IMG/VR virus record: IMGVR_UViG_3300027971_000029
Coordinates: 32,001 to 96,000 of that record
DNA length: 64,000 nucleotides
Source of the DNA: a virus
Lineage: Duplodnaviria; Caudoviricetes
Strand: one strand, 5' to 3'
Shown here: positions 20,112 to 51,025 of the stretch, one piece after another
Layout: the number at the start of each line of letters is the position of its first letter
How positions within the stretch are numbered: position 1 is the first letter of the stretch
Translations under genes and position numbers: made by a program
Notes under the pieces: model-generated
What the model saw: the letters and a program-made list of their open reading frames with translations, nothing else
What the model was told of the DNA's origin: nothing
Databases searched by the model: none

Positions 20112-20549
20112 TTAGAAACTGTATTTGATGCCAGCAGTGATACGGCTACCGTTTTGTGCGGCAACAGAATCTTGTCCTGAAATGTATGTATAGTCAACTA
20201 GACCAGTAACATTTTTCACGATTGGCATACTGAAAGTAGCACCAGCAAGGGCGGCATAGCCATCAGAACCAGTTGCACTGTCAACATACACACCACCAAA
20301 CTTTACACCAACTCCAACTGGTCCAATTTTTGTGATTTGGATTGTGTCGGTCAAACTGTAAAGGTCTGCGGTTGTACTACGATTGAAGCCTAGTGTCAAG
20401 TCTTGTCCAAAAACTTTATCACCCAATGTTAGACCCCAAGCATTTTCTCTGGAACTCAAATTTGTTCCACCATTAACACCAACTTCAACCGCTTGTGCAG
20501 ATGCTACTGCGACCATTAGTGATGCGATAATTGCAATTTTCTTAATCAA
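20112..20549 (-). CDS. Small outer-membrane beta-barrel protein
   Basis: Signal peptide (..ASAQA), alternating beta-strands, C-terminal GIKYSF with terminal Phe. Confidence 0.75.
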   Translation of the reverse strand: MIKKIAIIASLMVAVASAQAVEVGVNGGTNLSSRENAWGLTLGDKVFGQDLTLGFNRSTTADLYSLTDTIQITKIGPVGVGVKFGGVYVDSATGSDGYAALAGATFSMPIVKNVTGLVDYTYISGQDSVAAQNGSRITAGIKYSF

Positions 20550-20575
20550 AATAAACTCCTTGTTGTAAAAAAAAT

Positions 20576-20860
20576 GATAGCTTATTCTGTTACGAGGAAA
20601 GCTATCGAAACCCTAGGCCGTGTTTAGGCAGCCAATGCGAACTGTGAGTCGTTTGCGTTTACTTTTTTTGCTTGATTAACGGTCATCGCCTACCGTGCTG
20701 TCCACTCTGTTACTTGTTGCCCTGTCGAAACTAGTCTCCCCCATCAAAAAGAACCTACTGAATTACGATGCAGTGGTGATTAATTATTTCACCCTCTAAG
20801 TTCTTTTTGGTGGAGGAGGGGGGATTCGCACCCCCGTCCAGAACACTTTTCTCTTTACTT
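20576..20860 (-). ncRNA. ssrA: Two-piece (circularly permuted) tmRNA
   Basis: Acceptor piece with T-arm ends CTCCTCC-A-CCA at 20808; coding piece starts GGGGGAG at 20742 (G3.U70); tag ORF 20656-20624 reads ANDSQFALAA*; outer ends approximate. Confidence 0.9.
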
Positions 20861-21537
20861 CATACAGCAATATCTTGATGTTTCTTCACATAGTAAAGAA
20901 GGTCATCAATGTATTTATGTTTTGTTTCCTCGAATATCTGAGGCAATGTTTCATCATTCACTGCAATAGCTACCACGATTTGTTCGATTGGTAAACCAGT
21001 AATCTCTTCGAACATAATTGCATAAGCACTACATTGCATAAAATAATTTTTGATATGGTCTTTGTCTTTCAACCTGCTTGATGTTTTAAAATCGATGACA
21101 GAAAGTTTTCCTTTCCATTCAGCAATACAATCTACACGACCAGCAACTTTCAATTTATGAGAATACAATGCTTGCTCTAAACAATAGATGTTGCCAATGT
21201 TCTTCATCAATTCAGGTTTCAGTTGAAGAAACATCTCCTTCACATTCGGCATCATCATTTGTATTTTCATATCACTCAATTCATTGAGTAAAAACTTTTC
21301 ACAAACATCATGCACTGAAGTACCACGGCGAGATGCTTGGCTTGATATCTTATTCGCCTGCTCCTCGCCTACTCTCTTACGCCATTCCATGATTGCTTTT
21401 TTATTGTAAGCAGATAGAACAGTGGTGATAGAAGAATACTTCTCACCATTCGGTGTTGTGTATTTTCTTCCAGATTCAGTTGTTACAGCATTTAATTCAA
21501 AATCTAGTTCTGGAAGTTTCACATGGTTAAAAATCAT
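20860..21537 (-). CDS. PD-(D/E)XK exonuclease (Cas4-like phage exonuclease)
   Basis: SITTVL..RGT.VH..E..L..AGRVDCIAE..IDFKTS..YFMQ..AYA. Confidence 0.88.
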   Translation of the reverse strand: MIFNHVKLPELDFELNAVTTESGRKYTTPNGEKYSSITTVLSAYNKKAIMEWRKRVGEEQANKISSQASRRGTSVHDVCEKFLLNELSDMKIQMMMPNVKEMFLQLKPELMKNIGNIYCLEQALYSHKLKVAGRVDCIAEWKGKLSVIDFKTSSRLKDKDHIKNYFMQCSAYAIMFEEITGLPIEQIVVAIAVNDETLPQIFEETKHKYIDDLLYYVKKHQDIAV

Positions 21538-43385: not shown

Positions 43386-44494
43386 CAGAATGCATCAAAG
43401 TTAAAGTACTTCGGTACTTCTTTTGATAGAATCACAGTGATATCATCTTTCTCAAAGATGAATTGACCACTACTGGCATTGTACTTGACCATATTGCTAT
43501 TGTTCAATGATTTCTCATGCCAACCATTTCCACTGTCATCTTCAACATCTTCATCACCAAGAGTCTCATTTAGAAGTTTAGCGGCTTCTTTTTTGTGTTT
43601 AAACCAGTAACTAATATCAATCTCTCTTTGAGTAGACAATGGCGAACCAACCCAAACAGATGGGCTTACTCTATCTGCTTTTCTGTCACCACGCCACACT
43701 TCGACATTGTATGATGTACCACCATCAAACTCTGCTTTGACATTCAGAATACGCATAGCCTCTTGAGGTGTTTCGTTGTAACGATTCATCTCTTCGACAA
43801 CTGCTTTCAGCATGTCAAAATTGAATGATGCAAACACAGATGCAATATTCACCATAGAATCGATGTGTGCTTTGTTGGCCAAGTTATCGTTGCAGTATTC
43901 ACGAATGAAATTCTCATCTAAGCCTTTGAATTCTACCATATAGAAGATACGACCAGGGCGATTTCTCATATGCTCATCTACACGCCATTTGTCGTTGCTG
44001 GTTAGCATAAACAATTTTTTAGATGTGAAGATGCCATCTAGCAATGTCAACAGTCTTTCTTGGTCTTCTCTATCATAGACCTTTTCAAACTCATCAAAGA
44101 AAACAATGCATGGTTGTTCAATAGATTGAATCAATGTATTGAATTTGTCACCAGTAAACTCAGCATTCACTACAATGGTCGGCACACCTTGCTTAGCCAA
44201 CTCAACTGAGATGTTTTTACTCAATAGCGTTTTGCCTGAGCCTTTCTCACCAACAAGCATTACACCTGTACTTTGGTCACGATTCCAGAAACTATTGATA
44301 ATTCTATCAGTGTTTCTAGCGGTATCACCATATAACTTTGTGGGTAGGGTGAAGTCTTCAATGTGTTCAATGAAGAAGTTTTCGTATTGGTCTTGCTTTA
44401 CAACATAGTTACCAGCTGGTAACTGCTCATGCAAATCCATCGATTCTTTGGTCGCAATACGGAATGTATTGCCTGATTTCATGTAGTAACTCAT
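43385..44494 (-). CDS. AAA+ ATPase
   Basis: Walker A GEKGSGKT, Walker B FFDEFEK, NRPGRI. Confidence 0.9.
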   Translation of the reverse strand: MSYYMKSGNTFRIATKESMDLHEQLPAGNYVVKQDQYENFFIEHIEDFTLPTKLYGDTARNTDRIINSFWNRDQSTGVMLVGEKGSGKTLLSKNISVELAKQGVPTIVVNAEFTGDKFNTLIQSIEQPCIVFFDEFEKVYDREDQERLLTLLDGIFTSKKLFMLTSNDKWRVDEHMRNRPGRIFYMVEFKGLDENFIREYCNDNLANKAHIDSMVNIASVFASFNFDMLKAVVEEMNRYNETPQEAMRILNVKAEFDGGTSYNVEVWRGDRKADRVSPSVWVGSPLSTQREIDISYWFKHKKEAAKLLNETLGDEDVEDDSGNGWHEKSLNNSNMVKYNASSGQFIFEKDDITVILSKEVPKYFNFDAF

Positions 44495-44502
44495 AATAAA
44501 CC

Positions 44503-44859
44503 TTATGTATTTCGTGTCATTTGGCGCAAAATTCTAACATTATCATCTGGTGCTAGATAGCATCTCGCATTGATTATGGTTGAATTTTCAAGTAGATTCT
44601 CCATCTTTGTGAATTCGATTAATTTATTCTCAATCATGTATTTGACCAAGTGGTCAGCAACTCTCCATTTGATGGCATCTGGATTCAAACTGATGGTATC
44701 AAAATTTGATAATGTTATGTTCACATTAACAAGTTTACCACCAATAGCAATGTCAGTGTACTTACCAACATAATTGTTGTCCCAAACATCATTAAGAATT
44801 GTAGAACTACCGACACCACCATTCACAATTGGCAGTGCTGTAGAATTAGAAAATGCCAT
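44503..44859 (-). CDS. Hypothetical protein
   Basis: ORF downstream of the tRNA array. Confidence 0.55.
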   Translation of the reverse strand: MAFSNSTALPIVNGGVGSSTILNDVWDNNYVGKYTDIAIGGKLVNVNITLSNFDTISLNPDAIKWRVADHLVKYMIENKLIEFTKMENLLENSTIINARCYLAPDDNVRILRQMTRNT

Positions 44860-44897
44860 ATTTAATCACTCTCATAACTAACTCCTTCATAAAAAAC

Positions 44898-44981
44898 TGG
44901 TGCGAGTGGCGGGACTCGAACCCGCATACCTTGCGGCGGCAGATTTTAAGTCTGCTGTGTATACCATTCCACCACACTCGC
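44898..44981 (-). tRNA. tRNA-Leu(UAA)
   Basis: Cloverleaf, loop CTTAAAA, long variable arm, encoded CCA. Confidence 0.92.
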
Positions 44982-44986
44982 TTGAT

Positions 44987-45061
44987 TGGTCCGGCGTGAG
45001 AGAATCGAACTCCCATCAGAAGGGTAGAAGCCTACTGTACTATCCATTGTACTAACGCCAG
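44987..45061 (-). tRNA. tRNA-Arg(UCU)
   Basis: Loop CTTCTAC, CCA. Confidence 0.88.
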
Positions 45062-45067
45062 AATATT

Positions 45068-45334
45068 TTATTTGAATATTGCAGACCACTTCTGCAATTT
45101 TTGTCGTTTAAGACCTGATGCATTCAGTAATTCTTCTCGGTTAATCATACCTGATTCAACCATCAATTCAATCATGCAATGCAAGTCACCTAACTCTTCA
45201 GTTAATCGTTGCTTATTTGTACGCTCATTGTACATTTCATTTAGACCAAATCGGAAACACTTGCTAATAGCCTGTGTGACCTCTGCACATTCTTCCTGTG
45301 CAATCAACATAATTTCTCTATCAACATCATTCAT
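45068..45334 (-). CDS. MazG-like NTP pyrophosphohydrolase
   Basis: QEECAEVTQAISK..RFG..LTEELGDL. Confidence 0.75.
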   Translation of the reverse strand: MNDVDREIMLIAQEECAEVTQAISKCFRFGLNEMYNERTNKQRLTEELGDLHCMIELMVESGMINREELLNASGLKRQKLQKWSAIFK

Positions 45335-45392
45335 TGTGCTTTCTCCTAATGAATGCATTATAACACAACCACACAGACTTGTGTGGCAATAA

Positions 45393-45476
45393 TGGTGCCC
45401 CAAGAGAGACTCGAACTCTCAATCCTTTCGGCACTGGTTTCTAAGACCAGCGTGTATACCATTCCACCATCGGGGC
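45393..45476 (-). tRNA. tRNA-Leu(UAG)
   Basis: Loop CTTAGAA, long variable arm, CCA. Confidence 0.92.
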
Positions 45477-45503
45477 ATAAATTTGCATTGCTTTTAAATT
45501 ATA

Positions 45504-45698
45504 TTCAACATCTCGTAGCCAGGATTCTGTTTTTACCCTAACATTAATCTTTGCCACAACCCGAATCAATAGCGCAAGTGTTGCCTGACTCTGTTTGTGT
45601 TGCTTGTTATATCACGGTAGTTTAATGCTTTCGCTCCTACACACACTTGCCACAAGTCCTGAACTTCCTCTGTTACCAGCGTTAGGTCGGATGTTGAA
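45504..45698 (-). ncRNA. rnpB: Minimal RNase P RNA (about 195 nt)
   Basis: CR-I-like GAGGAAGTTCAGGA and CR-V-like AACAGAATCCTGGCTA form P4 with a bulged U; P1 TTCAACATC/GATGTTGAA; P2 CCTAAC/GTTAGG; tiny P3. Confidence 0.8.
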
Positions 45699-45704
45699 AT
45701 TCTT

Positions 45705-45780
45705 TGGTGCTACCTAGAGGAATCGAACCTCTTTCAATGGTTCTTCAGACCACCGCTATGACCACATCAGCTAAAGTAGC
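45705..45780 (-). tRNA. tRNA-Phe(GAA)
   Basis: Loop CTGAAGA, CCA. Confidence 0.9.
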
Positions 45781-45781
45781 A

Positions 45782-45855
45782 TGGTGCTCTCACCGAGAAT
45801 TGAACTCAGAATTCATCCTTACCAAGGATGTGTTATACCACTTAACTATGAGAGC
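45782..45855 (-). tRNA. tRNA-Thr(GGU)
   Basis: Loop TTGGTAA, CCA. Confidence 0.88.
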
Positions 45856-45862
45856 GATTGAA

Positions 45863-46059
45863 TTTGTAAGTAGTTTCACCCATATTATTGAAACCATTCA
45901 CCTTAGTATATAAAGCCGGCAAGGTCTCGGTACGCCACTTGGGATACTCAACAAAGGTGCTCCGATGCGTTTACGGGACTCGAACCCGTCCTTCTTTTTC
46001 ATTAGTTGGCTCTTCGAAGAAGCCTTCTAGCGAGTCTTTCTCTTGCTGACACTTACAAA
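45863..46059 (-). ncRNA. Unassigned structured RNA (about 197 nt) with an embedded T-arm
   Basis: Closing stem TTTGTAAGT/ACTTACAAA, several internal helices, ACGGG-TTCGAGT-CCCGT. Confidence 0.6.
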
Positions 46060-46062
46060 ACT

Positions 46063-46137
46063 TGGTACCTTGTGACGGGATTGAACCGCCGACCTTCTCC
46101 GTGTAAAAGAGTTACTCTACCGCTGAGTTAACAAGGC
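46063..46137 (-). tRNA. tRNA-Val(UAC)
   Basis: Loop TTTACAC, CCA. Confidence 0.88.
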
Positions 46138-46140
46138 AAA

Positions 46141-46716
46141 TTACATAGTGGGACCGTTGCCGTTTTTAAAGCCAACGGAACCACCTTCTTCATTGATTCT
46201 CTTAATCACATCTTCAAAGAGAATTGGTCTAAAATCTGTTTGTTCTACACAAACACAATGGTAACGGGTGTCAATTTCATATTCACCCCACACTTCAGTC
46301 TTCACACGGTTTGAATGGGTGTGACCATGAATGTTTGTACCAAAACGACCTAGACTGTCACTATGAATTGGGATATGACTAAGAATCATTCCATTCATTA
46401 CATGATATGCTCTCAATTCACGAAAATGAATTCTGTATTCATCATCACGAAAGATATCATGGTTACCACGAATCAGAACTTTATCACCATTCAGCCTGTG
46501 CATGATGCTAAGTGCCTTTCGGTTGATTACAACATCACCGAGGTGGTACACTTTATCATTTGGTCGAACAGTTTCGTTCCATCGCTTGACCATTTCTTCA
46601 TCCATATCTTCTGGATTGTCCCATGGTCTTAATTTCGTTACTCCGTCATCACGAAGAAACTTACACACTCCAGCATGACCAAAATGTGTGTCACTTGTTA
46701 AAAATACTGAAGGCAT
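46141..46716 (-). CDS. Calcineurin-like metallophosphoesterase
   Basis: SDTHFGH, HLGD, RGNHD, SHIP and HGHTH motifs. Confidence 0.9.
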   Translation of the reverse strand: MPSVFLTSDTHFGHAGVCKFLRDDGVTKLRPWDNPEDMDEEMVKRWNETVRPNDKVYHLGDVVINRKALSIMHRLNGDKVLIRGNHDIFRDDEYRIHFRELRAYHVMNGMILSHIPIHSDSLGRFGTNIHGHTHSNRVKTEVWGEYEIDTRYHCVCVEQTDFRPILFEDVIKRINEEGGSVGFKNGNGPTM

Positions 46717-46739
46717 AATTTTCTCCTATTAATTCGCTT

Positions 46740-46815
46740 TGGGTTGTGCTATGAGGATTGAACTCATACTATCTCGGTCACAGCGAGAGGTGCAGACCAC
46801 TACACTAAGCACAAC
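46740..46815 (-). tRNA. tRNA-His(GUG)
   Basis: Loop CTGTGAC, G-1:C73, CCA. Confidence 0.9.
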
Positions 46816-46845
46816 CCAAAACAAATTGGTATCATAAATATAAGG

Positions 46846-47088
46846 ATGTTTTGGACCATTGTCATCATAAGCGTTGGTATTATATCACCAAACATTCAAT
46901 ATGTGGGGCAATTTACAGAAGAAGCCCAATGTACGAATGCTTTGGCAACTCTGAAGACTCAAACTTATCCACCGCAAGTAAAACTAACATGCGCTCAATT
47001 TCCTGAGCCACCGATACCTCCTGCGCCACCGCCACCAGCTAAAGTCACACCAAAAGAATCAATATCTTCAAAAGATGCTAAGAAATGA
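46846..47088 (+). CDS. Small exported/membrane protein with Pro-rich tail
   Basis: CATAAATA late promoter at 46833-46840; hydrophobic N-terminus, two Cys. Confidence 0.6.
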   Translation: MFWTIVIISVGIISPNIQYVGQFTEEAQCTNALATLKTQTYPPQVKLTCAQFPEPPIPPAPPPPAKVTPKESISSKDAKK

Positions 47089-47576
47089 TTGACCCGTTTA
47101 CAGCATTTGCATTAGCACAAGGTGCTGTTGCTGGTATTAAAAAAGCAATTGCATTAGGCAAAGACATTAATGGTCTTATACATGAATTCAGTGCATTCTA
47201 CAAAGCCGCTGATGATGTACATCACTCGGCAGTAAAAGCTAAAATAGATTCTATTCGCATGAGTAATGCTGAGATAAGTGCCAGAGCATTACAAATTGCT
47301 ATGGCATCAAGAGCATTAAGACAACATGAAAAAGAACTCAAAGACATTCTATTTTGGTCTGGTAATGCTGAAGTCTATTATGAAATGCAAGCAGAACGAA
47401 AAAGAATGATAGATGAGCGTCAAGCAGAAGAAAAAAGAGTAGAAGAGCAAAAACAAAAAGACCGTGAAGCCAAAGCAAGGGCTATGATGGGCACTCTTTG
47501 GATTATGGGTTCTCTTTGCATTGTCATACCAATGTGTACAATTCTCTTTCAACTGATAACAGTCAAACATTTATAA
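47085..47576 (+). CDS. Coiled-coil protein with C-terminal TM helix
   Basis: MIDPFTAFALAQGAV..; ATGA overlap with the upstream ORF. Confidence 0.7.
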   Translation: MIDPFTAFALAQGAVAGIKKAIALGKDINGLIHEFSAFYKAADDVHHSAVKAKIDSIRMSNAEISARALQIAMASRALRQHEKELKDILFWSGNAEVYYEMQAERKRMIDERQAEEKRVEEQKQKDREAKARAMMGTLWIMGSLCIVIPMCTILFQLITVKHL

Positions 47577-47650
47577 TGGAGCGGAGTGAGAGAATCGAAC
47601 TCTCAACGGAAGATTGGAAATCTACAGTTTTACCATTAAACTAACCCCGC
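47577..47650 (-). tRNA. tRNA-Gly(UCC)
   Basis: Loop TTTCCAA, U73, CCA. Confidence 0.9.
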
Positions 47651-47732
47651 AAATGCACCGATGCTTATTCAAGCAGAAGCAATGTTCGGTGCCACACAAA
47701 GGCAAGATTTAAAAAGAGCCTGCACTCTATAC

Positions 47733-47807
47733 TGGAGCGGGTAGAGGGAATCGAACCCTCAACTAAACCTTGGCAAGGTCTTGTGTTACCACTAGCACCA
47801 TACCCGC
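47733..47807 (-). tRNA. tRNA-Gly(GCC)
   Basis: Loop TTGCCAA, U73, CCA. Confidence 0.92.
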
Positions 47808-47810
47808 ATA

Positions 47811-48299
47811 CTACGCCTCAGCTAATTCTTGTTCAGCCAAGATTCTTTTCAGTCTATCAGCACAGAAACTTGCGGCTGGCGCATCTGGCTTGACCATTGG
47901 TGTCACATTACATGTACCTTTGATATAACCAATTGCTTGTTGCACTACGCAAGAACTTCCGTGTTCATCAGATTTGTTCAAGTCCAAATGAACTTCAACA
48001 TGTCTATCTTCAAGCACATCGGCTAACGATTGAAACAATTCTGAAACCTTGTAGACTTCAGTCATCAATCTCATAGCAGGTTTGCTTTTCTTGTGGTCAT
48101 AATCTAATTCACGAGTTAAAAAACCGAAAATCTTACAGCCATGGCGTCCATCAATATGAACTACAACAGCCAATGCATAATCTGCATACCACACGCCGTC
48201 AACTCTAACTCTTTCTGAATCAGCACCGAGATATACTTTCGTGTCAGGTCCTTGATTCACAATGAATTGTTTCACTTTTTCGATTTCAAAATTTTTCAT
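47811..48299 (-). CDS. RNase H-like YkuK-family protein
   Basis: YLGADS, RLMTEV, EVHLDLN and KPDAPAAS..AD motifs. Confidence 0.75.
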   Translation of the reverse strand: MKNFEIEKVKQFIVNQGPDTKVYLGADSERVRVDGVWYADYALAVVVHIDGRHGCKIFGFLTRELDYDHKKSKPAMRLMTEVYKVSELFQSLADVLEDRHVEVHLDLNKSDEHGSSCVVQQAIGYIKGTCNVTPMVKPDAPAASFCADRLKRILAEQELAEA

Positions 48300-48315
48300 A
48301 GATACTTCTTTCTTA

Positions 48316-48390
48316 TGGCACCCCGCCAGGGATTCGAACCCCGTCCCACGGTTTTGGAGACCGTCATGCTGCCGTTAACACCAGCGAGAT
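48316..48390 (-). tRNA. tRNA-Trp(CCA)
   Basis: Loop CTCCAAA, G73. Confidence 0.9.
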
Positions 48391-48393
48391 ATA

Positions 48394-48468
48394 TGGTCCT
48401 CTCGAAAGGAATCGAACCTTAGGTCTTTCGGTTATCAGCCGAATGCTCTACCATTAAGCTACAAGAGG
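48394..48468 (-). tRNA. tRNA-Ile(GAU)
   Basis: Loop CTGATAA. Confidence 0.9.
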
Positions 48469-48473
48469 AAACT

Positions 48474-48548
48474 TGGCGGGTCCTGAGAGAATCGAACTCC
48501 CACTCGTAGGTTCGTAGCCTACTGTAATATCCATTTTACTAAAGACCC
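48474..48548 (-). tRNA. tRNA-Arg(ACG)
   Basis: Loop CTACGAA. Confidence 0.9.
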
Positions 48549-48552
48549 ATAT

Positions 48553-48627
48553 TGGTGGTGATAGTTGGATTCGAGCCAACGACCTACTGCGTATGAAGCA
48601 GTTGCACTACCGCTGTGCTATATCACC
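48553..48627 (-). tRNA. tRNA-Met(CAU), probably elongator
   Basis: Loop TTCATAC, G1:C72. Confidence 0.85.
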
Positions 48628-48631
48628 ATAT

Positions 48632-48707
48632 TGGTTGCAGAGGCAGGATTCGAACCTGCGGTTCTTGGCTTATGAGACCAAGCGGATGACCACTTCCATA
48701 CTCTGCG
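48632..48707 (-). tRNA. tRNA-fMet(CAU)-like
   Basis: Loop CTCATAA, C1xA72 mismatch. Confidence 0.8.
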
Positions 48708-48712
48708 ACAAT

Positions 48713-48789
<77 letters not shown>

Positions 48790-48798
48790 ATAAAAACT

Positions 48799-48872
48799 TG
48801 GTGCCCCATGACAGAATCGAACTGCCGTAACCTGATTACAAAACAGGTGTAATACCATTATACTAATAGGGC
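48799..48872 (-). tRNA. tRNA-Thr(UGU)
   Basis: Loop TTTGTAA. Confidence 0.9.
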
Positions 48873-48966
48873 GAAATAGGTGTCGGGCTTCCACCGACTG
48901 CTAATCAAACTACTCTGAACTCAGAGGTGATTAATCTGCCTTGATACAATCTTCAAGGACTTTTAT

Positions 48967-49044
48967 TGGTCTGTGTGGTTGGATTCGAACCAACGGCTCC
49001 TCACTTCCAAGGCGAGATGTCTGACCTGACTGACATACACACAG
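48967..49044 (-). tRNA. tRNA-Pro(UGG), second copy
   Basis: Loop CTTGGAA, C1:G72. Confidence 0.82.
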
Positions 49045-49050
49045 ATAAAA

Positions 49051-49124
49051 TGGTGGAGGATAAGAGAATCGAACTCTTGTGACTAACTTGCAAGGCTAGT
49101 ATAATACCATTATATGAATCCCCC
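49051..49124 (-). tRNA. tRNA-Ala(UGC)
   Basis: Loop CTTGCAA, G3.U70. Confidence 0.9.
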
Positions 49125-49180
49125 GAAATATGTGATTGACTACTTATCTCATTATACGCCATCAATCAAGGCGAGTTATA

Positions 49181-49256
49181 TGGCTCCACAGGGTGGGTTC
49201 GAACCACCGACCAAATGATTAACAGTCATCTACTCTACCGACTGAGCTACTGCGGA
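49181..49256 (-). tRNA. tRNA-Asn(GUU)
   Basis: Loop CTGTTAA, G73. Confidence 0.92.
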
Positions 49257-49262
49257 ATATTC

Positions 49263-49625
49263 TTAAACTAAATCGTGTGTCAAATTTACGCTAGTCGAGT
49301 AGTAGCCGTTAGACTCACCAAACCAACGAACATCAACATAACCTTTGCGTGTTGCAAATTTGTAGAATGTCCACTCAACACACTCGTGGTTCATAGCATC
49401 AAACTCAACTGGTGTTTCACCTGATACCTCTTCAGCCATCAATAGTGGTTCACCTTCTAAGTCTGACAAGTCACCAACGATATCTTCTATCGAAACAGAC
49501 TCACAACAATCTTGGTAATGAAGGAAAGTGAATACTTCTTTATCATTAGCAAATGTCATTGTTTCGCCATCTTGTGTCACCGATGTGAACACTTTACCTA
49601 TCATATTCTCTATATTCATTTTCAA
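49263..49625 (-). CDS. Conserved phage hypothetical protein
   Basis: HYQDCCESV.IEDI.GD..WTFYKFAT.KG.V..RW.GESNGYYS. Confidence 0.75.
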   Translation of the reverse strand: MKMNIENMIGKVFTSVTQDGETMTFANDKEVFTFLHYQDCCESVSIEDIVGDLSDLEGEPLLMAEEVSGETPVEFDAMNHECVEWTFYKFATRKGYVDVRWFGESNGYYSTSVNLTHDLV

Positions 49626-49642
49626 CTCCTTACAAAAAAACT

Positions 49643-49717
49643 TGGCGGTTCGTAGGGGTAACGATCCCCTTCTTTATGCGTGACAGGCATATGTGCGTCC
49701 ATGAACACTTACGAACC
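49643..49717 (-). tRNA. tRNA-Asp(GUC)
   Basis: Loop CTGTCAC, G73. Confidence 0.88.
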
Positions 49718-49721
49718 AAAT

Positions 49722-49807
49722 TGGTGGAGACAGATGGATTCGAACCACCGTGCTTTTTACAGAACAGATTTACAGTCTGCCGCCTTCAGCCACTCGGCCA
49801 TATCTCC
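49722..49807 (-). tRNA. tRNA-Tyr(GUA)
   Basis: Loop CTGTAAA, long variable arm. Confidence 0.92.
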
Positions 49808-49815
49808 AAAACTTT

Positions 49816-49890
49816 TGGTAGGGGTACAGAGAATCGAACTCTGATTAATAGGTTAAAAGCCTACTACTTTAGCCGTTAAGTTATACCCCC
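49816..49890 (-). tRNA. tRNA-Lys(UUU)
   Basis: Loop CTTTTAA. Confidence 0.9.
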
Positions 49891-49976
49891 AAACTTTACC
49901 ATAGAAAAACACATTAGTCTCAAAAAGCGTAACAGCAGTTTTCACCGACAGGCTTATGAGATAATGCGTTTATCTA

Positions 49977-50051
49977 TGGTACTCAGTACGGGAGTCGAAC
50001 CCGTCTTTCCAGATTGAAAGTCTAGCGACCTAACCGATAGTCGAACTGAGC
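49977..50051 (-). tRNA. tRNA-Glu(UUC)
   Basis: Loop CTTTCAA. Confidence 0.9.
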
Positions 50052-50064
50052 ATAAGCAATGCAA

Positions 50065-50131
50065 ATTTTTAAAGAACTTATCGATTTCTCAACCGATGCA
50101 TGAAGTATAACAGAACTGTAGGTTTTGTCAA
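50065..50131 (-). promoter_or_regulatory. tRNA operon promoter plus boxA-like antiterminator
   Basis: TTGACA-N16-TATACT (50104-50131), then GTTCTTTAAAAAT (50065-50077). Confidence 0.7.
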
Positions 50132-50182
50132 CATCTTTTTTTCATACTGTTACAAAAATACAACACAACTTCTATTTGCAAT

Positions 50183-50259
50183 TGGAGTGCGTGACAGGAA
50201 TCGAACCTGCATAAAACGGATTTGCAATCCGACACCTAACCGTTCAGTAGCACACGCAC
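50183..50259 (-). tRNA. tRNA-Cys(GCA)
   Basis: Loop TTGCAAA, U73. Confidence 0.9.
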
Positions 50260-50266
50260 ATAAAAT

Positions 50267-50345
50267 TGGTACCCTTGCTCAGATTCGAACTGAGAGAACT
50301 CTTCCTTTTGAGAGAAGCGACTTTACCAGATTTGTCCACAAGGGC
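50267..50345 (-). tRNA. tRNA-Leu(CAA) with short variable loop
   Basis: Loop CTCAAAA; 6-nt variable region. Confidence 0.82.
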
Positions 50346-50346
50346 A

Positions 50347-50421
50347 TGGTAGACTGAAAGAGAATTGAACTCTTACTCGACCGATTATGAGTCGGCTGCT
50401 TTACCATTAAGCTATCAGTCT
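50347..50421 (-). tRNA. tRNA-Ile2(CAU, lysidine-type) probable
   Basis: Anticodon arm GCCGA-CTCATAA-TCGGT resembles ileX. Confidence 0.75.
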
Positions 50422-50663
50422 TCTTTTTCTAAATCTTGTTCGAGTCTTTGTTCTTGTATCGTTTTCTCTTTGAAAACTTTTCTAGGATTACTGCACATCA
50501 CACATCTAGGATTACCACAATTCATAGCATGATGTTTTGCGAACTTGTGAGGTTCATCAACAACAATGCCGAACTCTTTAGCAATCTTAACTTGTTTCTT
50601 CACTGCATTGTCTGTTTCGAAAATGCGTTTAGAATGCTTGATTTTTTCTTCTTCATGCGACAT
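50415..50663 (-). CDS. Small basic hypothetical protein with Cys motif
   Basis: MSHEEEKIKHS..CGNPRCVMCSNPRK; start corrected to 50663 (AGGAG SD). Confidence 0.7.
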   Translation of the reverse strand: MSHEEEKIKHSKRIFETDNAVKKQVKIAKEFGIVVDEPHKFAKHHAMNCGNPRCVMCSNPRKVFKEKTIQEQRLEQDLEKED

Positions 50664-50683
50664 ACCAACTCCTTTTAAGAAAA

Positions 50684-50771
50684 TGGCAGAGAGTATCAGA
50701 TTCGAACTGATGCACCCATTTCTGAATGACGGTTTAGCAAACCGCTGGTTTAACCACTCACCCAACTCTCT
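50684..50771 (-). tRNA. tRNA-Ser(GCU)
   Basis: Loop TTGCTAA, long arm, G73. Confidence 0.92.
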
Positions 50772-50778
50772 ATAAACT

Positions 50779-50867
50779 TGGCGGAAGAACTGAGATTCGA
50801 ACTCAGGGACCTTGTTACAGTCGGCAGTTTTCAAGACTGCTGGTTTAAACCACTCACCCACTCTTCC
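50779..50867 (-). tRNA. tRNA-Ser(UGA)
   Basis: Loop CTTGAAA, long arm, G73. Confidence 0.92.
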
Positions 50868-50951
50868 AATATCATAGAAAAACACACTTCGAATACTGTA
50901 CTAAACAGAAACTATCCATCACGGGCTCCCCCGCTGAAATGTGTTTATCTA

Positions 50952-51025
50952 TGGCAGGGGATACAAGAATCGAACTTGTACTAACAGATTCAAAGTCTGC
51001 TGTGCTACCACTACACAAATCCCCA
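50952..51025 (-). tRNA. tRNA-Gln(UUG)
   Basis: Loop CTTTGAA, U1:A72, G73. Confidence 0.9.

What the first reader, a model, noticed from the sequence alone, without database searches (positions are those of the whole stretch)
45504..45698. Phage-encoded miniature RNase P RNA inside the tRNA array
Seen on the - strand: TTCAACATCCGA-CCTAAC-G-CTGGTAACAG-AGGAAGTTCAGGA...GCAAGTGT...ACACTTGC...ATTAATG-TTAGG-GTAAAAACAGAATCCTGGCTA-CGAGATGTTGAA. This gives P1, P2, a 3-bp P3 and a P4 (AGU-U-CAGGA / UCCUG-GCU) with the universally bulged U. Relative to the bacterial consensus (GAGGAAAGUCCGG..ACAGAACCCGGCUUA) there is a compensatory change. At about 195 nt it is roughly half a typical bacterial P RNA, so most of the specificity domain must be missing. 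Inference: the phage supplies its own 5' tRNA-processing ribozyme, probably using host RnpA.
Basis: partly seen in the sequence, partly recalled or inferred. Interest (0 to 1): 0.85.

Follow-up and report, generated by a model that had tools for sequence, protein, structure and literature searches.

The report
Phage-encoded miniature RNase P ribozyme gene
A T4-like freshwater phage carries, between two of its 29 tRNA genes, a 195-base cut-down copy of RNase P RNA (the ribozyme that trims the front end of new tRNAs) that keeps the catalytic half and has lost nearly all of the half that reads the tRNA elbow.

Summary
Window 45504-45698 (- strand) folds into P1, P2, P3, P4 with the bulged U, P5, a P6-like pseudoknot and P15-P17. 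Searched alone, it aligns end to end with Rfam bacterial class A RNase P (31.3 bits, gathering score 100, E 1.5e-8), skipping the specificity domain and P18. It belongs to a phage family: 48 viral contigs match one strict motif pattern, against 0 for a gap-length control, and my model confirms 19 of 19 distinct copies of the first set and 22 of 25 loci of the second. On 38 sequences 95.7% of pair cells are standard pairs (33-44% when partners are slid). P4, which was not in the model, covaries at its free positions. Wherever tRNAs are held (33 of 42 loci), all are co-oriented with the element. An unannotated copy lies in cultured Stenotrophomonas phage DLP6 (116 bits). No RnpA gene was found in 6 of 6 phage records. 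Catalysis, host RnpA use and expression are not shown. Eight full-text searches found no description. The nearest print is a remark on extra, probably transferred, RNase P RNA homologues in two mycobacteria. This scan has flagged the same kind of element before on other DNA (at least 106 genomes).

The parts
45504..45698 (-). Whole miniature RNase P RNA gene, 195 nt, from the first to the last base of P1
   Evidence: RF00010 full-model alignment at 45500-45698; model R1 hit at 45503-45700, 230 bits; sequence
45690..45698 (-). P1 5' strand (pairs with 45504-45512)
   Evidence: 9 standard pairs; all 9 P1 pairs show double-sided changes in 38 sequences
45504..45512 (-). P1 3' strand
45681..45686 (-). 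P2 5' strand CCUAAC (pairs with 45537-45542)
   Evidence: 6 of 6 pairs covary, 98.7% of cells paired
45537..45542 (-). P2 3' strand GUUAGG
45670..45679 (-). P3, a 3-bp hairpin with a GUAA loop; longer in relatives
   Evidence: 100% of cells paired
45657..45670 (-). CR-I and the P4 5' strand, GAGGAAGUUCAGGA, with bulged U at 45662
   Evidence: Aligned to the GAGGAAAGUCCGG consensus of RF00010. P4 was not in the model; its four free pairs show 3-5 pair types each
45516..45536 (-). J2/4 and CR-V with the P4 3' strand, GUAAAAACAGAAUCCUGGCUA (P4 3' strand at 45517-45524)
   Evidence: Aligned to the ACAGAACCCGGCUUA consensus; covariation
45652..45656 (-). P5 5' strand CUUGU (pairs with 45603-45607), stacked on P4
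   Evidence: Found independently by RNAalifold; 5 of 5 pairs covary
45603..45607 (-). P5 3' strand ACAAG
45643..45650 (-). P6-like pseudoknot, 5' strand GCAAGUGU (pairs with 45574-45581 in the P17 loop)
   Evidence: 5-8 bp at the same two places in 19 of 19 copies, at least 10 different sequences; the 5-bp cases are not individually significant
45574..45581 (-). P6-like pseudoknot, 3' strand ACACUUGC
45616..45642 (-). Remnant of the specificity domain: a 5-bp helix enclosing a small GAAA-capped hairpin, with conserved GGAG and A-C residues
   Evidence: Helices covary (helices 6-8). G62, A64, G65, A78 and C79 are shared by 36-37 of 38 sequences. S-domain model positions are skipped
45600..45602 (-). 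J5/15 CAA; the two adenosines are invariant
   Evidence: A98 and A99 present in 38 of 38 sequences and not constrained by my pattern; aligned to the GCAA of RF00010
45555..45599 (-). P15 (CAC/GUG), L15 internal loop (AAACA / GGGUU), P16 and P17
   Evidence: P15 has 3 of 3 pairs covarying. AAACAGA and CGGGUU are aligned to AAAUAGG and CGGGUa of RF00010. GGU is present in all 20 members of 221 nt or less that have the anchor
45542..45550 (-). CR-IV, AGAUUAAUG, running into the P2 3' strand; no P18 before it
   Evidence: Aligned to the AGAugAAUG consensus; 24 P18 model positions are replaced by 0 nt. A149 and G150 in 36 of 38, A155 in 38 of 38, U156 in 36 of 38
45705..45780 (-). Upstream tRNA-Phe(GAA) with encoded CCA, 6 nt before P1
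45393..45476 (-). Downstream tRNA-Leu(UAG), 27 nt after P1
44898..51025 (-). tRNA array of 29 genes covering all 20 amino acids; all on the - strand and all with encoded CCA

Best explanation
This is a gene for a miniature, bacterial type-A-like RNase P RNA that the phage expresses as part of its polycistronic tRNA transcript. It keeps the complete catalytic domain: P1-P5, the P4 pseudoknot with the bulged U, the J5/15 adenosines, the P15/L15/P16-17 module with GGU, a P6-like pseudoknot, and CR-I, CR-IV and CR-V. It has lost P18 and all of the specificity domain except a 27-nt stub. Shown here: homology, the structure, purifying selection on it, and its linkage to phage tRNA arrays. Inferred: tRNA processing releases it from the transcript (tRNA-Phe-CCA lies 6 nt upstream and tRNA-Leu 27 nt downstream). 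It then binds the host's RnpA protein, since no phage copy was found, and cleaves the 5' leaders of the phage's own pre-tRNAs, probably also of its permuted tmRNA. Without the T-loop-reading domain, it would recognise substrates through the acceptor end, by L15 GGU pairing with the 3'-CCA and by the J5/15 adenosines contacting N-1. The likely benefit is a tRNA-maturing capacity that keeps pace with 29 closely packed tRNA genes and does not depend on the host's RNase P RNA supply during infection.
For: Homology: RF00010 aligns over the full model (1-367) to 45500-45698 at E 1.5e-8, helix by helix. Six of 10 homologue loci hit RF00373 or RF00010 at the element, E 9e-11 to 3e-3. The archaeal model maps the same architecture on L018. 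Structure: 96.5% of pair cells are standard on 19 sequences and 95.7% on 38, against 32-44% with slid partners. 43 and 44 of 50 pairs show double-sided changes, and 0 of 500 shuffles reach this. RNAalifold found P3, P4 and P5 unaided. P4 was left out of the model and still pairs in 99.3% and 97.0% of cells. Core nucleotides not fixed by my pattern are conserved: J5/15 AA in 38 of 38, CR-IV A-G and A-U in 36-38 of 38, and GGU in 20 of 20 small members. Family and context: 23 + 25 viral contigs against 0 in the gap control. R1 confirms 19 of 19 and 22 of 25. In 33 of 42 loci tRNAs are held, and in 33 of 33 every tRNA is co-oriented with the element. In 16 of 42 a tRNA lies within 15 nt of one end. 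In this phage 29 of 29 tRNAs encode CCA and 23 of 29 have U at -1. No PF00825 gene was found in 6 of 6 phage records, while 10 of 14 control genomes ring. From papers: the C-domain alone cleaves with reduced efficiency (PMC5839562, abstract in the listing). [quoted passage not shown] The RCCA-GGU and A248/N-1 contacts are described in PMC11143913 and PMC6582537 (passages).
Against: The bit score is far below Rfam's gathering score (31.3 against 100). A 401-nt search that included the flanking tRNAs found nothing, and the DLP6 copy gives no Rfam hit at E <= 1. No activity data exist. Expression is not shown: the four metatranscriptome runs are contigs, and only one contig touches the element (45646-45860, its first 53 nt). 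The invariance of CR-I and CR-V, and of four P4 pairs, is partly imposed by my search pattern. The alignments were fitted to the nested structure by the model, which inflates pair counts for every helix except P4. The CCA argument does not generalise: only 222 of 425 tRNAs in 28 family arrays encode CCA, and 10 arrays have almost none while keeping GGU. U at -1 may simply reflect AT-rich spacers. The three closest cultured relatives lack the element (0 of 3), so it is dispensable for this phage lineage. The own record is only 76% complete, so an RnpA gene could lie in the missing part.
Confidence: 0.75

Rival explanations
1. RnpA decoy or specificity switch. The RNA is a true RNase P RNA homologue, but its main role is to capture the host's limiting RnpA protein. 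That would starve the host holoenzyme, shutting down host tRNA and mRNA processing, or would re-aim the enzyme at phage substrates, rather than adding catalytic capacity.
For: The protein-binding part of RNase P RNA lies in the catalytic domain (recalled from bacterial holoenzyme structures), and that is the part kept here. No phage RnpA was found in 6 of 6 records. Loss of the S-domain must change substrate preference. The element is dispensable in close cultured relatives.
Against: A pure decoy would not need the catalytic and substrate-contacting nucleotides, yet these are the best conserved: the bulged U and CR-I/CR-V, the J5/15 AA in 38 of 38, and L15 GGU in 20 of 20 small members. Its position inside tRNA arrays, co-oriented in 33 of 33 loci, fits an enzyme made together with its substrates.
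Confidence: 0.12
2. Protein-independent ribozyme, or one that uses an unrecognised phage protein. The mini RNA works without host RnpA, alone or with a phage-encoded cofactor unrelated to PF00825.
For: No RnpA family gene in 6 of 6 phage records. Many small ORFs of unknown function lie in and beside the array, for example DUF7448 and several with no Pfam hit. The family spans hosts of 32-64% GC, so one RNA design must work with very different host proteins.
Against: Bacterial RNase P RNAs need the protein in vivo, and C-domain-only constructs are weaker still (PMC5839562, abstract). I looked for no conserved neighbouring protein across the family, so nothing supports a phage cofactor.
Confidence: 0.08
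3. Decaying or non-functional remnant of a captured host rnpB, or a structured spacer that only guides processing of the neighbouring tRNAs.
For: Half of the molecule is gone. The score is far below the Rfam threshold. Expression is not shown.
Against: Forty-two confirmed copies in contigs of very different GC content keep every catalytic-domain helix through hundreds of compensatory changes: 538 cells with double-sided changes, and 0 of 500 shuffles reach this. They also keep the unpaired core nucleotides. A decaying remnant would not do that.
Confidence: 0.03

Closest known systems
Bacterial type A RNase P RNA (rnpB / M1 RNA; Rfam RF00010)
   Same: Colinear P1-P2-P3-P4-P5, the P4 pseudoknot with a bulged U, the GCAA J5/15, the P15/L15/P16-17 module with GGU, a P6-like pseudoknot to the P17 loop, and the CR-I, CR-IV and CR-V motifs. 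All are aligned by the Rfam model itself.
   Different: About 195 nt against 367 model positions. There is no P7-P14 specificity domain with CR-II and CR-III (only a 27-nt stub), no P18, and P3 is cut to 3 bp. In P4 two consensus pairs are replaced by compensatory changes (AAG/CUU becomes AGU/GCU). It is carried by a virus and scores 31 bits where the family threshold is 100.
Archaeal T-type minimal RNase P RNA of Thermoproteaceae (Lai et al. 2010, cited in PMC7191817; passages read)
   Same: A natural RNase P RNA of roughly 200 nt that keeps the catalytic domain, lacks nearly all of the specificity domain, and is reported as still active.
   Different: It is cellular, archaeal and reported only from one archaeal order, and it works with archaeal proteins. 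The phage RNA has the bacterial/type A L15 GGU module and P6. No T-type model match was listed for it, although only the best hit of the clan is shown, so membership was not tested.
Engineered C-domain-only bacterial RNase P RNA (Eco CP RPR; PMC5839562, abstract seen)
   Same: Catalytic domain without the S-domain. It shows that such an RNA can cleave pre-tRNA and that it leans on the acceptor end and CCA contacts.
   Different: It is a laboratory construct with reduced efficiency. The phage RNA is a natural form kept by selection, with a conserved stub and, in this size class, no P18.
Extra RNase P RNA homologues in Mycobacterium austroafricanum and M. sp. YC-RL4 (Behra et al. 2022, PMC9569102; passages read)
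   Same: [quoted passage not shown]
   Different: They were reported in bacterial chromosomes as an aside. They were not linked to phages or tRNA arrays and were not defined as a family. I did not compare their sequences with this one. The paper's supplementary figures, which I could not see, may show their structure.
Small RNase P RNAs of Micrarchaeota MAGs (L026-L028, found here)
   Same: About 200-217 nt, with the same GAGGAAGUUC and AAACAGAA..GGCUA motifs. They hit RF00373 at 82-93 bits.
   Different: They lie on cellular archaeal contigs. They keep S-domain-like CAGAAACG and GAUGAAACGG motifs (the naming is recalled), lack the GCAA/AAACAGA/CGGGUU L15 module, and score only 27-35 bits or nothing with the phage model.

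Membership tests
RNase P RNA, bacterial type A (RF00010) | Nested P1, P2 and P3 with a long-range P4 pseudoknot carrying a bulged U | tested here: met
   All pairs are standard in the window copy. P1, P2 and P4 covary; P4 is 97-99% paired although it was not in the model.
RNase P RNA, bacterial type A (RF00010) | Conserved regions CR-I, CR-IV and CR-V at their canonical places | tested here: met
   The Rfam alignment puts GAGGAAGUUCAGG, AGAUUAAUG and ACAGAAUCCUGGCUA on the corresponding consensus blocks. CR-IV conservation is independent of my pattern.
RNase P RNA, bacterial type A (RF00010) | J5/15 adenosines and the P15/L15/P16 internal loop with GGU (the contacts with N-1 and 3'-CCA) | tested here: met
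   AA in 38 of 38; P15 has 3 of 3 pairs covarying; GGU in 20 of 20 small members; aligned by RF00010.
RNase P RNA, bacterial type A (RF00010) | P6 pseudoknot between the strand 3' of P5 and the P17 loop | tested here: inconclusive
   5-8 bp at the homologous places in 19 of 19 copies, with at least 10 different sequences. The 5-bp cases are reached by 14-50% of shuffles.
RNase P RNA, bacterial type A (RF00010) | Specificity domain (P7-P14) with CR-II and CR-III that bind the tRNA T-loop and D-loop | tested here: not met
   S-domain model positions are skipped in the RF00010 and RF00373 alignments. Only a 27-nt helix-hairpin stub remains.
RNase P RNA, bacterial type A (RF00010) | P18 hairpin before CR-IV | tested here: not met
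   24 model positions are replaced by 0 nt. Larger relatives of 223 nt or more do carry a hairpin there.
RNase P RNA, bacterial type A (RF00010) | Score at or above Rfam's gathering threshold | tested here: not met
   31.3 bits against 100; nothing at gathering on the whole window.
RNase P RNA, bacterial type A (RF00010) | Endonucleolytic removal of pre-tRNA 5' leaders, aided by the RnpA protein | not testable with these tools
No PF00825 gene in 6 of 6 phage records.
T-type minimal RNase P RNA (Thermoproteaceae) | Catalytic domain kept, S-domain nearly absent | tested here: met
   The same reduction is seen. This is a likeness in design, not evidence of common descent.
T-type minimal RNase P RNA (Thermoproteaceae) | Match to the T-type model; archaeal lineage and archaeal protein partners | not tested
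   Rfam output keeps only the best hit of the clan, which was RF00010 or RF00373. The carrier is a T4-like phage.

The most novel reading that the evidence does not exclude
Tailed phages carry and spread their own RNase P ribozyme, the smallest natural bacterial-type one at about 190-200 nt. It works without any T-loop-reading domain and makes phage tRNA maturation independent of, or dominant over, the host enzyme. It may do so as a holoenzyme with hijacked host RnpA whose specificity is shifted towards phage pre-tRNAs. Such viral copies could also be the source of the odd extra RNase P RNAs seen in some bacterial genomes.
Probability: 0.35. Interest if true: 0.9.

Novelty: new variant of a known kind. 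Interest (0 to 1): 0.82.

Why it matters
To my knowledge (recalled), RNase P RNA is known only from cells and organelles. A virus-borne, naturally minimised version would add a ribozyme to the list of translation-related functions that phages carry, alongside tRNAs, tmRNA and aminoacyl-tRNA synthetases. It would also be a natural experiment on how little RNA suffices for RNase P function: no S-domain, no P18 and a 3-bp P3. That speaks to the long-running question of what the specificity domain is for. The family escapes standard annotation (below the Rfam thresholds and unannotated in GenBank record KU682439.2), so tRNA-rich phage genomes are being under-annotated. Because a copy exists in a cultured phage-host pair (DLP6 on S. 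maltophilia D1571), the idea can be tested at the bench now.

Tried and rejected
Rfam at gathering on the whole window and at E <= 10 on 45400-45800 gave no RNase P hit. The hit appeared only when the flanking tRNAs were left out, so I read as a filter effect, not as absence.

The single-sequence fold had z -1.7 on the - strand and -1.1 on the + strand. This is not informative, and MFE folding cannot show the pseudoknots.

blastn against GenBank phages found no match with the window copy, L011 or L005. Megablast of 44000-47000 found only one tRNA-Leu.

The closest cultured relatives by the gp6-like protein (Melnitz-3, HTVC008M, Mosig) gave 0 of 3 R1 matches.

Expression: the four RNA runs laid were contigs. 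One X16 contig covers 45646-45860, and no contig covers 45515-45615 in any run. I draw no verdict on expression, and DNA carry-over is not excluded.

Pattern hits dropped:
- L025 (Bacteroidetes MAG) has no P1 or P2 and no R1 or Rfam hit, so I treat it as a chance match in coding-like sequence.
- L038, L050 and L052 gave no R1 hit at E <= 0.001.
- L059 gave only a partial hit (model 22-160) and was left out of the alignments.
- L027 gave no R1 hit but does hit RF00373.

Rows left out as duplicates or near-duplicates:
- L012, L013, L018, L020 and L024 are identical to L005, L002, L011, L017 and L009.
- L040, L053, L055 and L057 have the same scores as L037, L042, L041 and L042, and were left out of A6 (received 38 sources).

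The idea that encoded CCA is a family-wide correlate of the L15 GGU was rejected: 222 of 425 tRNAs, with a bimodal distribution.

My 32-nt test for GGU failed in the members of 223 nt or more because a hairpin intervenes there. For those members GGU remains unassessed. Three sequences (L034, L044, L060) did not match my anchor regex.

I did not test whether the stable RNAs of the T4 tRNA cluster (recalled) are related.

Supplementary files of PMC9569102, which may show the structure of the extra mycobacterial RPRs, could not be seen.

Full report
**What is there.** The window is bases 32001-96000 of a 124,557-base IMG/VR virus record estimated to be 76% complete. It encodes T4-type baseplate proteins and a ribonucleotide reductase. 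By its gp6-like protein (about 41% identity), its nearest cultured relatives are Pelagibacter phage HTVC008M, the Methylophilales Melnitz phages and Pelagibacter phage Mosig. On the - strand it carries 29 tRNA genes (44898-51025) covering all 20 amino acids, and a permuted tmRNA at 20533-20920. The finding lies between tRNA-Phe (45705-45780) and tRNA-Leu (45393-45476).

**Is it RNase P RNA?** At Rfam's gathering thresholds nothing but tRNAs and tmRNA is found. A permissive scan of 45400-45800 also found nothing. When the element alone was searched (45495-45704), RF00010 (bacterial RNase P class A) aligned over its whole length (model 1-367) to 45500-45698, with 31.3 bits (gathering 100) and E 1.5e-8. 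The alignment is informative helix by helix:
- P1/P2 and P3 are aligned.
- GAGGAAGUUCAGG lies on the consensus GAGGAAAGUCCGG, followed by P5.
- The specificity-domain positions are skipped.
- GCAA lies on GCAA, and P15 is aligned.
- AAACAGA lies on AAAUAGG, and CGGGUU on CGGGUa.
- The 24 positions of P18 are replaced by nothing.
- AGAUUAAUG lies on AGAugAAUG, followed by the P2 3' strand.
- ACAGAAUCCUGGCUA lies on ACAGAACCCGGCUUA, followed by the P1 3' strand.

Of 10 homologue loci scanned, 6 gave RNase P hits exactly at the element: RF00373 at 48.9, 43.9, 36.7, 35.6 and 25 bits, and RF00010 at 42.7 bits. Four gave none. The archaeal model maps the same architecture on L018, with 89 S-domain positions replaced by 16 nt. 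The element is therefore a homologue of the catalytic domain of type A RNase P RNA, and it is too reduced to pass curated thresholds.

**A family, and covariation.**
- *Search pattern.* The pattern used the two P4-flanking motifs, with the four variable P4 positions left free and a gap of 118-148 nt. It found 23 viral contigs, which are 19 distinct sequences counting the window copy. A gap of 149-179 nt found 25 more. A gap of 87-117 nt found none, which serves as an empirical chance control. In the window the pattern occurs once, and in 0 of 100 shuffles.
- *Unaided prediction.* RNAalifold on a plain MAFFT alignment recovered P3, P4 and a P5 stacked on P4, each with compensatory changes.
- *Model R1.* I built R1 from six sequences of the window's subfamily using only the nested helices, leaving P4 and P6 out. 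R1 recovered 19 of 19 distinct copies full-length at 39-243 bits, 22 of the 25 new loci, and one MAG contig that looks like phage (L029, 78.5 bits).
- *Pair counts.* On 19 sequences 96.5% of 915 pair cells are standard pairs, against 32-44% when the 3' partners are slid by 1-3 columns. 43 of 50 pairs have double-sided changes, and 0 of 500 shuffles reach any of the five measures. On 38 sequences the figures are 95.7%, 33-44%, 44 of 50 and 0 of 500.
- *Two caveats.* The alignments were fitted to the nested structure by the model. Four P4 pairs, and the CR-I and CR-V letters, were fixed by my search pattern.
- *The cleanest evidence* is therefore the other four P4 pairs, which neither the pattern nor the model constrained. 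They pair in 75 of 76 cells on 19 sequences, with 3-5 pair types each.
- *P6-like pairing.* A pairing between the strand just 3' of P5 and the P17 loop is present in 19 of 19 copies (5-8 bp, at least 10 different sequences). It is not individually significant where it is only 5 bp.

**Conserved unpaired nucleotides.** Several positions that my pattern did not constrain are conserved:
- The two J5/15 adenosines are invariant (38 of 38).
- The A-G and A-U of CR-IV are kept in 36-38 of 38.
- Several stub residues (G62, A64, G65, A78, C79) are kept in 36-37 of 38.

The L15 GGU is present in all 20 members of 221 nt or less that my anchor could place. Members of 223 nt or more have an extra hairpin directly before CR-IV, at the P18 position, so the window copy represents the smallest, P18-less form. 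It is the fourth shortest of 42.

**Context.** Of 42 confirmed loci, 33 hold at least one tRNA in the fetched stretch, and in 33 of 33 every tRNA is on the element's strand. In 16 of 42 a tRNA lies within 15 nt of one end of the element, often 0-6 nt. In the window the upstream tRNA-Phe ends in CCA 6 nt before P1, which leaves no room for a promoter of its own, and tRNA-Leu starts 27 nt after P1. I infer that the RNA is made as part of the tRNA transcript and that its ends are set by tRNA 3' processing upstream and RNase P cleavage downstream.

**Substrate features.** In this phage 29 of 29 tRNA genes encode 3'-CCA and 23 of 29 have U at -1. Those are the features read by L15 GGU and by the J5/15 adenosine in bacterial RNase P (passages in PMC11143913 and PMC6582537). 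This fits an enzyme that must rely on the acceptor end. It is not a family rule, however. Over 28 arrays only 222 of 425 tRNAs encode CCA. The distribution is bimodal, with 12 arrays at or near 100% and 10 arrays near zero that still keep GGU. U at -1 is found in 308 of 425, but the spacers are AT-rich.

**Protein partner.** No PF00825 (RnpA) gene was found in the window's own record. None was found in five other carriers either, of which three are 98-100% complete and one is the complete DLP6 genome. The control search rang in 10 of 14 bacterial genomes. Use of the host's RnpA is the simplest reading, but it is an inference.

**Expression.** The stretch 44000-47000 occurs in freshwater and lake metagenome runs of 14 studies, and small shares of it occur in six metatranscriptome runs. 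Four RNA runs were laid, all as contigs. One X16 contig of 247 nt covers 45646-45860, that is tRNA-Thr, tRNA-Phe and the first 53 nt of the element, with two differences. No contig covers the middle of the element. This neither shows nor excludes expression.

**A cultured carrier.** Following the phage name given in earlier scan note e1-5325976, I fetched Stenotrophomonas phage vB_SmaS-DLP_6 (KU682439.2; identity checked). R1 hits it full-length at 105772-106019, with 116.4 bits and E 2e-27. The hit lies in an unannotated gap 6 nt upstream of tRNA-Arg inside its tRNA array. The copy keeps CR-I, a covarying P4 (CGCGA/UCGCG), P5, GCAA, P15, CR-IV and CR-V. Rfam gives no hit for it at E <= 1.

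**Cellular look-alikes.** The same pattern in 185,579 species genomes hit five MAG contigs:
- One is phage-like (L029, with 10 co-oriented tRNAs).
- One is a chance match (L025).
- Three are Micrarchaeota or uncultured-archaeon contigs whose 200-217-nt RNAs reach 82-93 bits on RF00373. Two of those contigs carry housekeeping genes (thermosome, GGGP synthase, HMG-CoA reductase, PGK, an aaRS). These are small cellular archaeal RNase P RNAs of a different design, with S-domain-like motifs kept and the L15 module absent.

**Literature.** Eight full-text searches found no paper describing an RNase P RNA encoded by a phage or virus.
- The 2024 JBC review mentions phage only as a source of tRNA substrates (passages).
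- The P Finder paper reports the minimal T-type only from Thermoproteaceae and never mentions phage or virus (term search).
- The nearest print is Behra et al. 2022 (PMC9569102; passages). It reports two extra, probably horizontally acquired RPR homologues in M. austroafricanum and M. sp. YC-RL4, with altered specificity domains and unknown function.
- Subscription journals are not covered by the library.

**Earlier scan notes.** This scan has reported the same kind of element before on other DNA: 118 notes in at least 106 genomes. Those are unchecked AI notes. I used one of them as a lead and tested it here.

**Verdict.** That this is a selected, structured homologue of the RNase P RNA catalytic domain I hold at about 0.95. 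That it is an active tRNA 5'-processing ribozyme working with host RnpA I hold at about 0.7-0.75. It is a new variant (viral, minimal) of a known kind of ribozyme.

Noticed in passing
window 20533-20920 (-): Permuted (two-piece) tmRNA gene with tag peptide ANDSQFALAA. It scores 139.8 bits on RF04321 and 122.9 bits on the betaproteobacterial tmRNA model. This hints at a betaproteobacterial host. RNase P would also be needed to mature it.
   Followed up: partly
window 46141-46716, 47811-48299, 49263-49625 (all -): Protein genes interspersed in the tRNA array: a phosphoesterase (phrog_547; weak Metallophos hit), an RNaseH_like PF04308 protein and a DUF7448 protein. Whether any of them works with the tRNAs or the mini RNase P RNA is unknown.
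   Followed up: partly
L026 5713-5920, L027 3629-3845, L028 4580-4779: Micrarchaeota and uncultured-archaeon MAG contigs with housekeeping genes carry RNase P RNAs of only about 200-217 nt that reach 82-93 bits on RF00373 (gathering 84). They share the phage family's P4-flanking motifs but keep S-domain-like motifs and lack the L15 module.
   Followed up: partly
L049 2373-2621 and 1886-2116 (-): A 488-kb viral record estimated 100% complete has two matches to the model about 250 nt apart (59.1 and 25.1 bits). This may be a second, divergent copy.
   Followed up: no
L008 12076-12152; L016 10616-10690; L044 3197-3272; L053 8085-8160; L055 4992-5065: Several phages that carry the family also have a tRNA with anticodon CUA, which ARAGORN calls tRNA-Pyl. 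This is an amber suppressor, so those phages may read TAG as a sense codon.
   Followed up: no
L036-L058, members of 223-271 nt: Larger family members carry an extra hairpin, often with a GAAA or UUCG loop, directly before CR-IV at the P18 position. The family therefore has a P18-bearing form and a P18-less form, and the window copy is of the latter.
   Followed up: partly
28 family loci: Genome-encoded 3'-CCA on phage tRNAs is bimodal between arrays, either nearly all or nearly none (222 of 425 overall), irrespective of the conserved L15 GGU in the accompanying RNase P RNA.
   Followed up: partly
L035 (KU682439.2 105768-106025): The copy in cultured Stenotrophomonas phage DLP6 lies in a stretch with no annotated feature, between a hypothetical CDS and tRNA-Arg.
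   Followed up: yes
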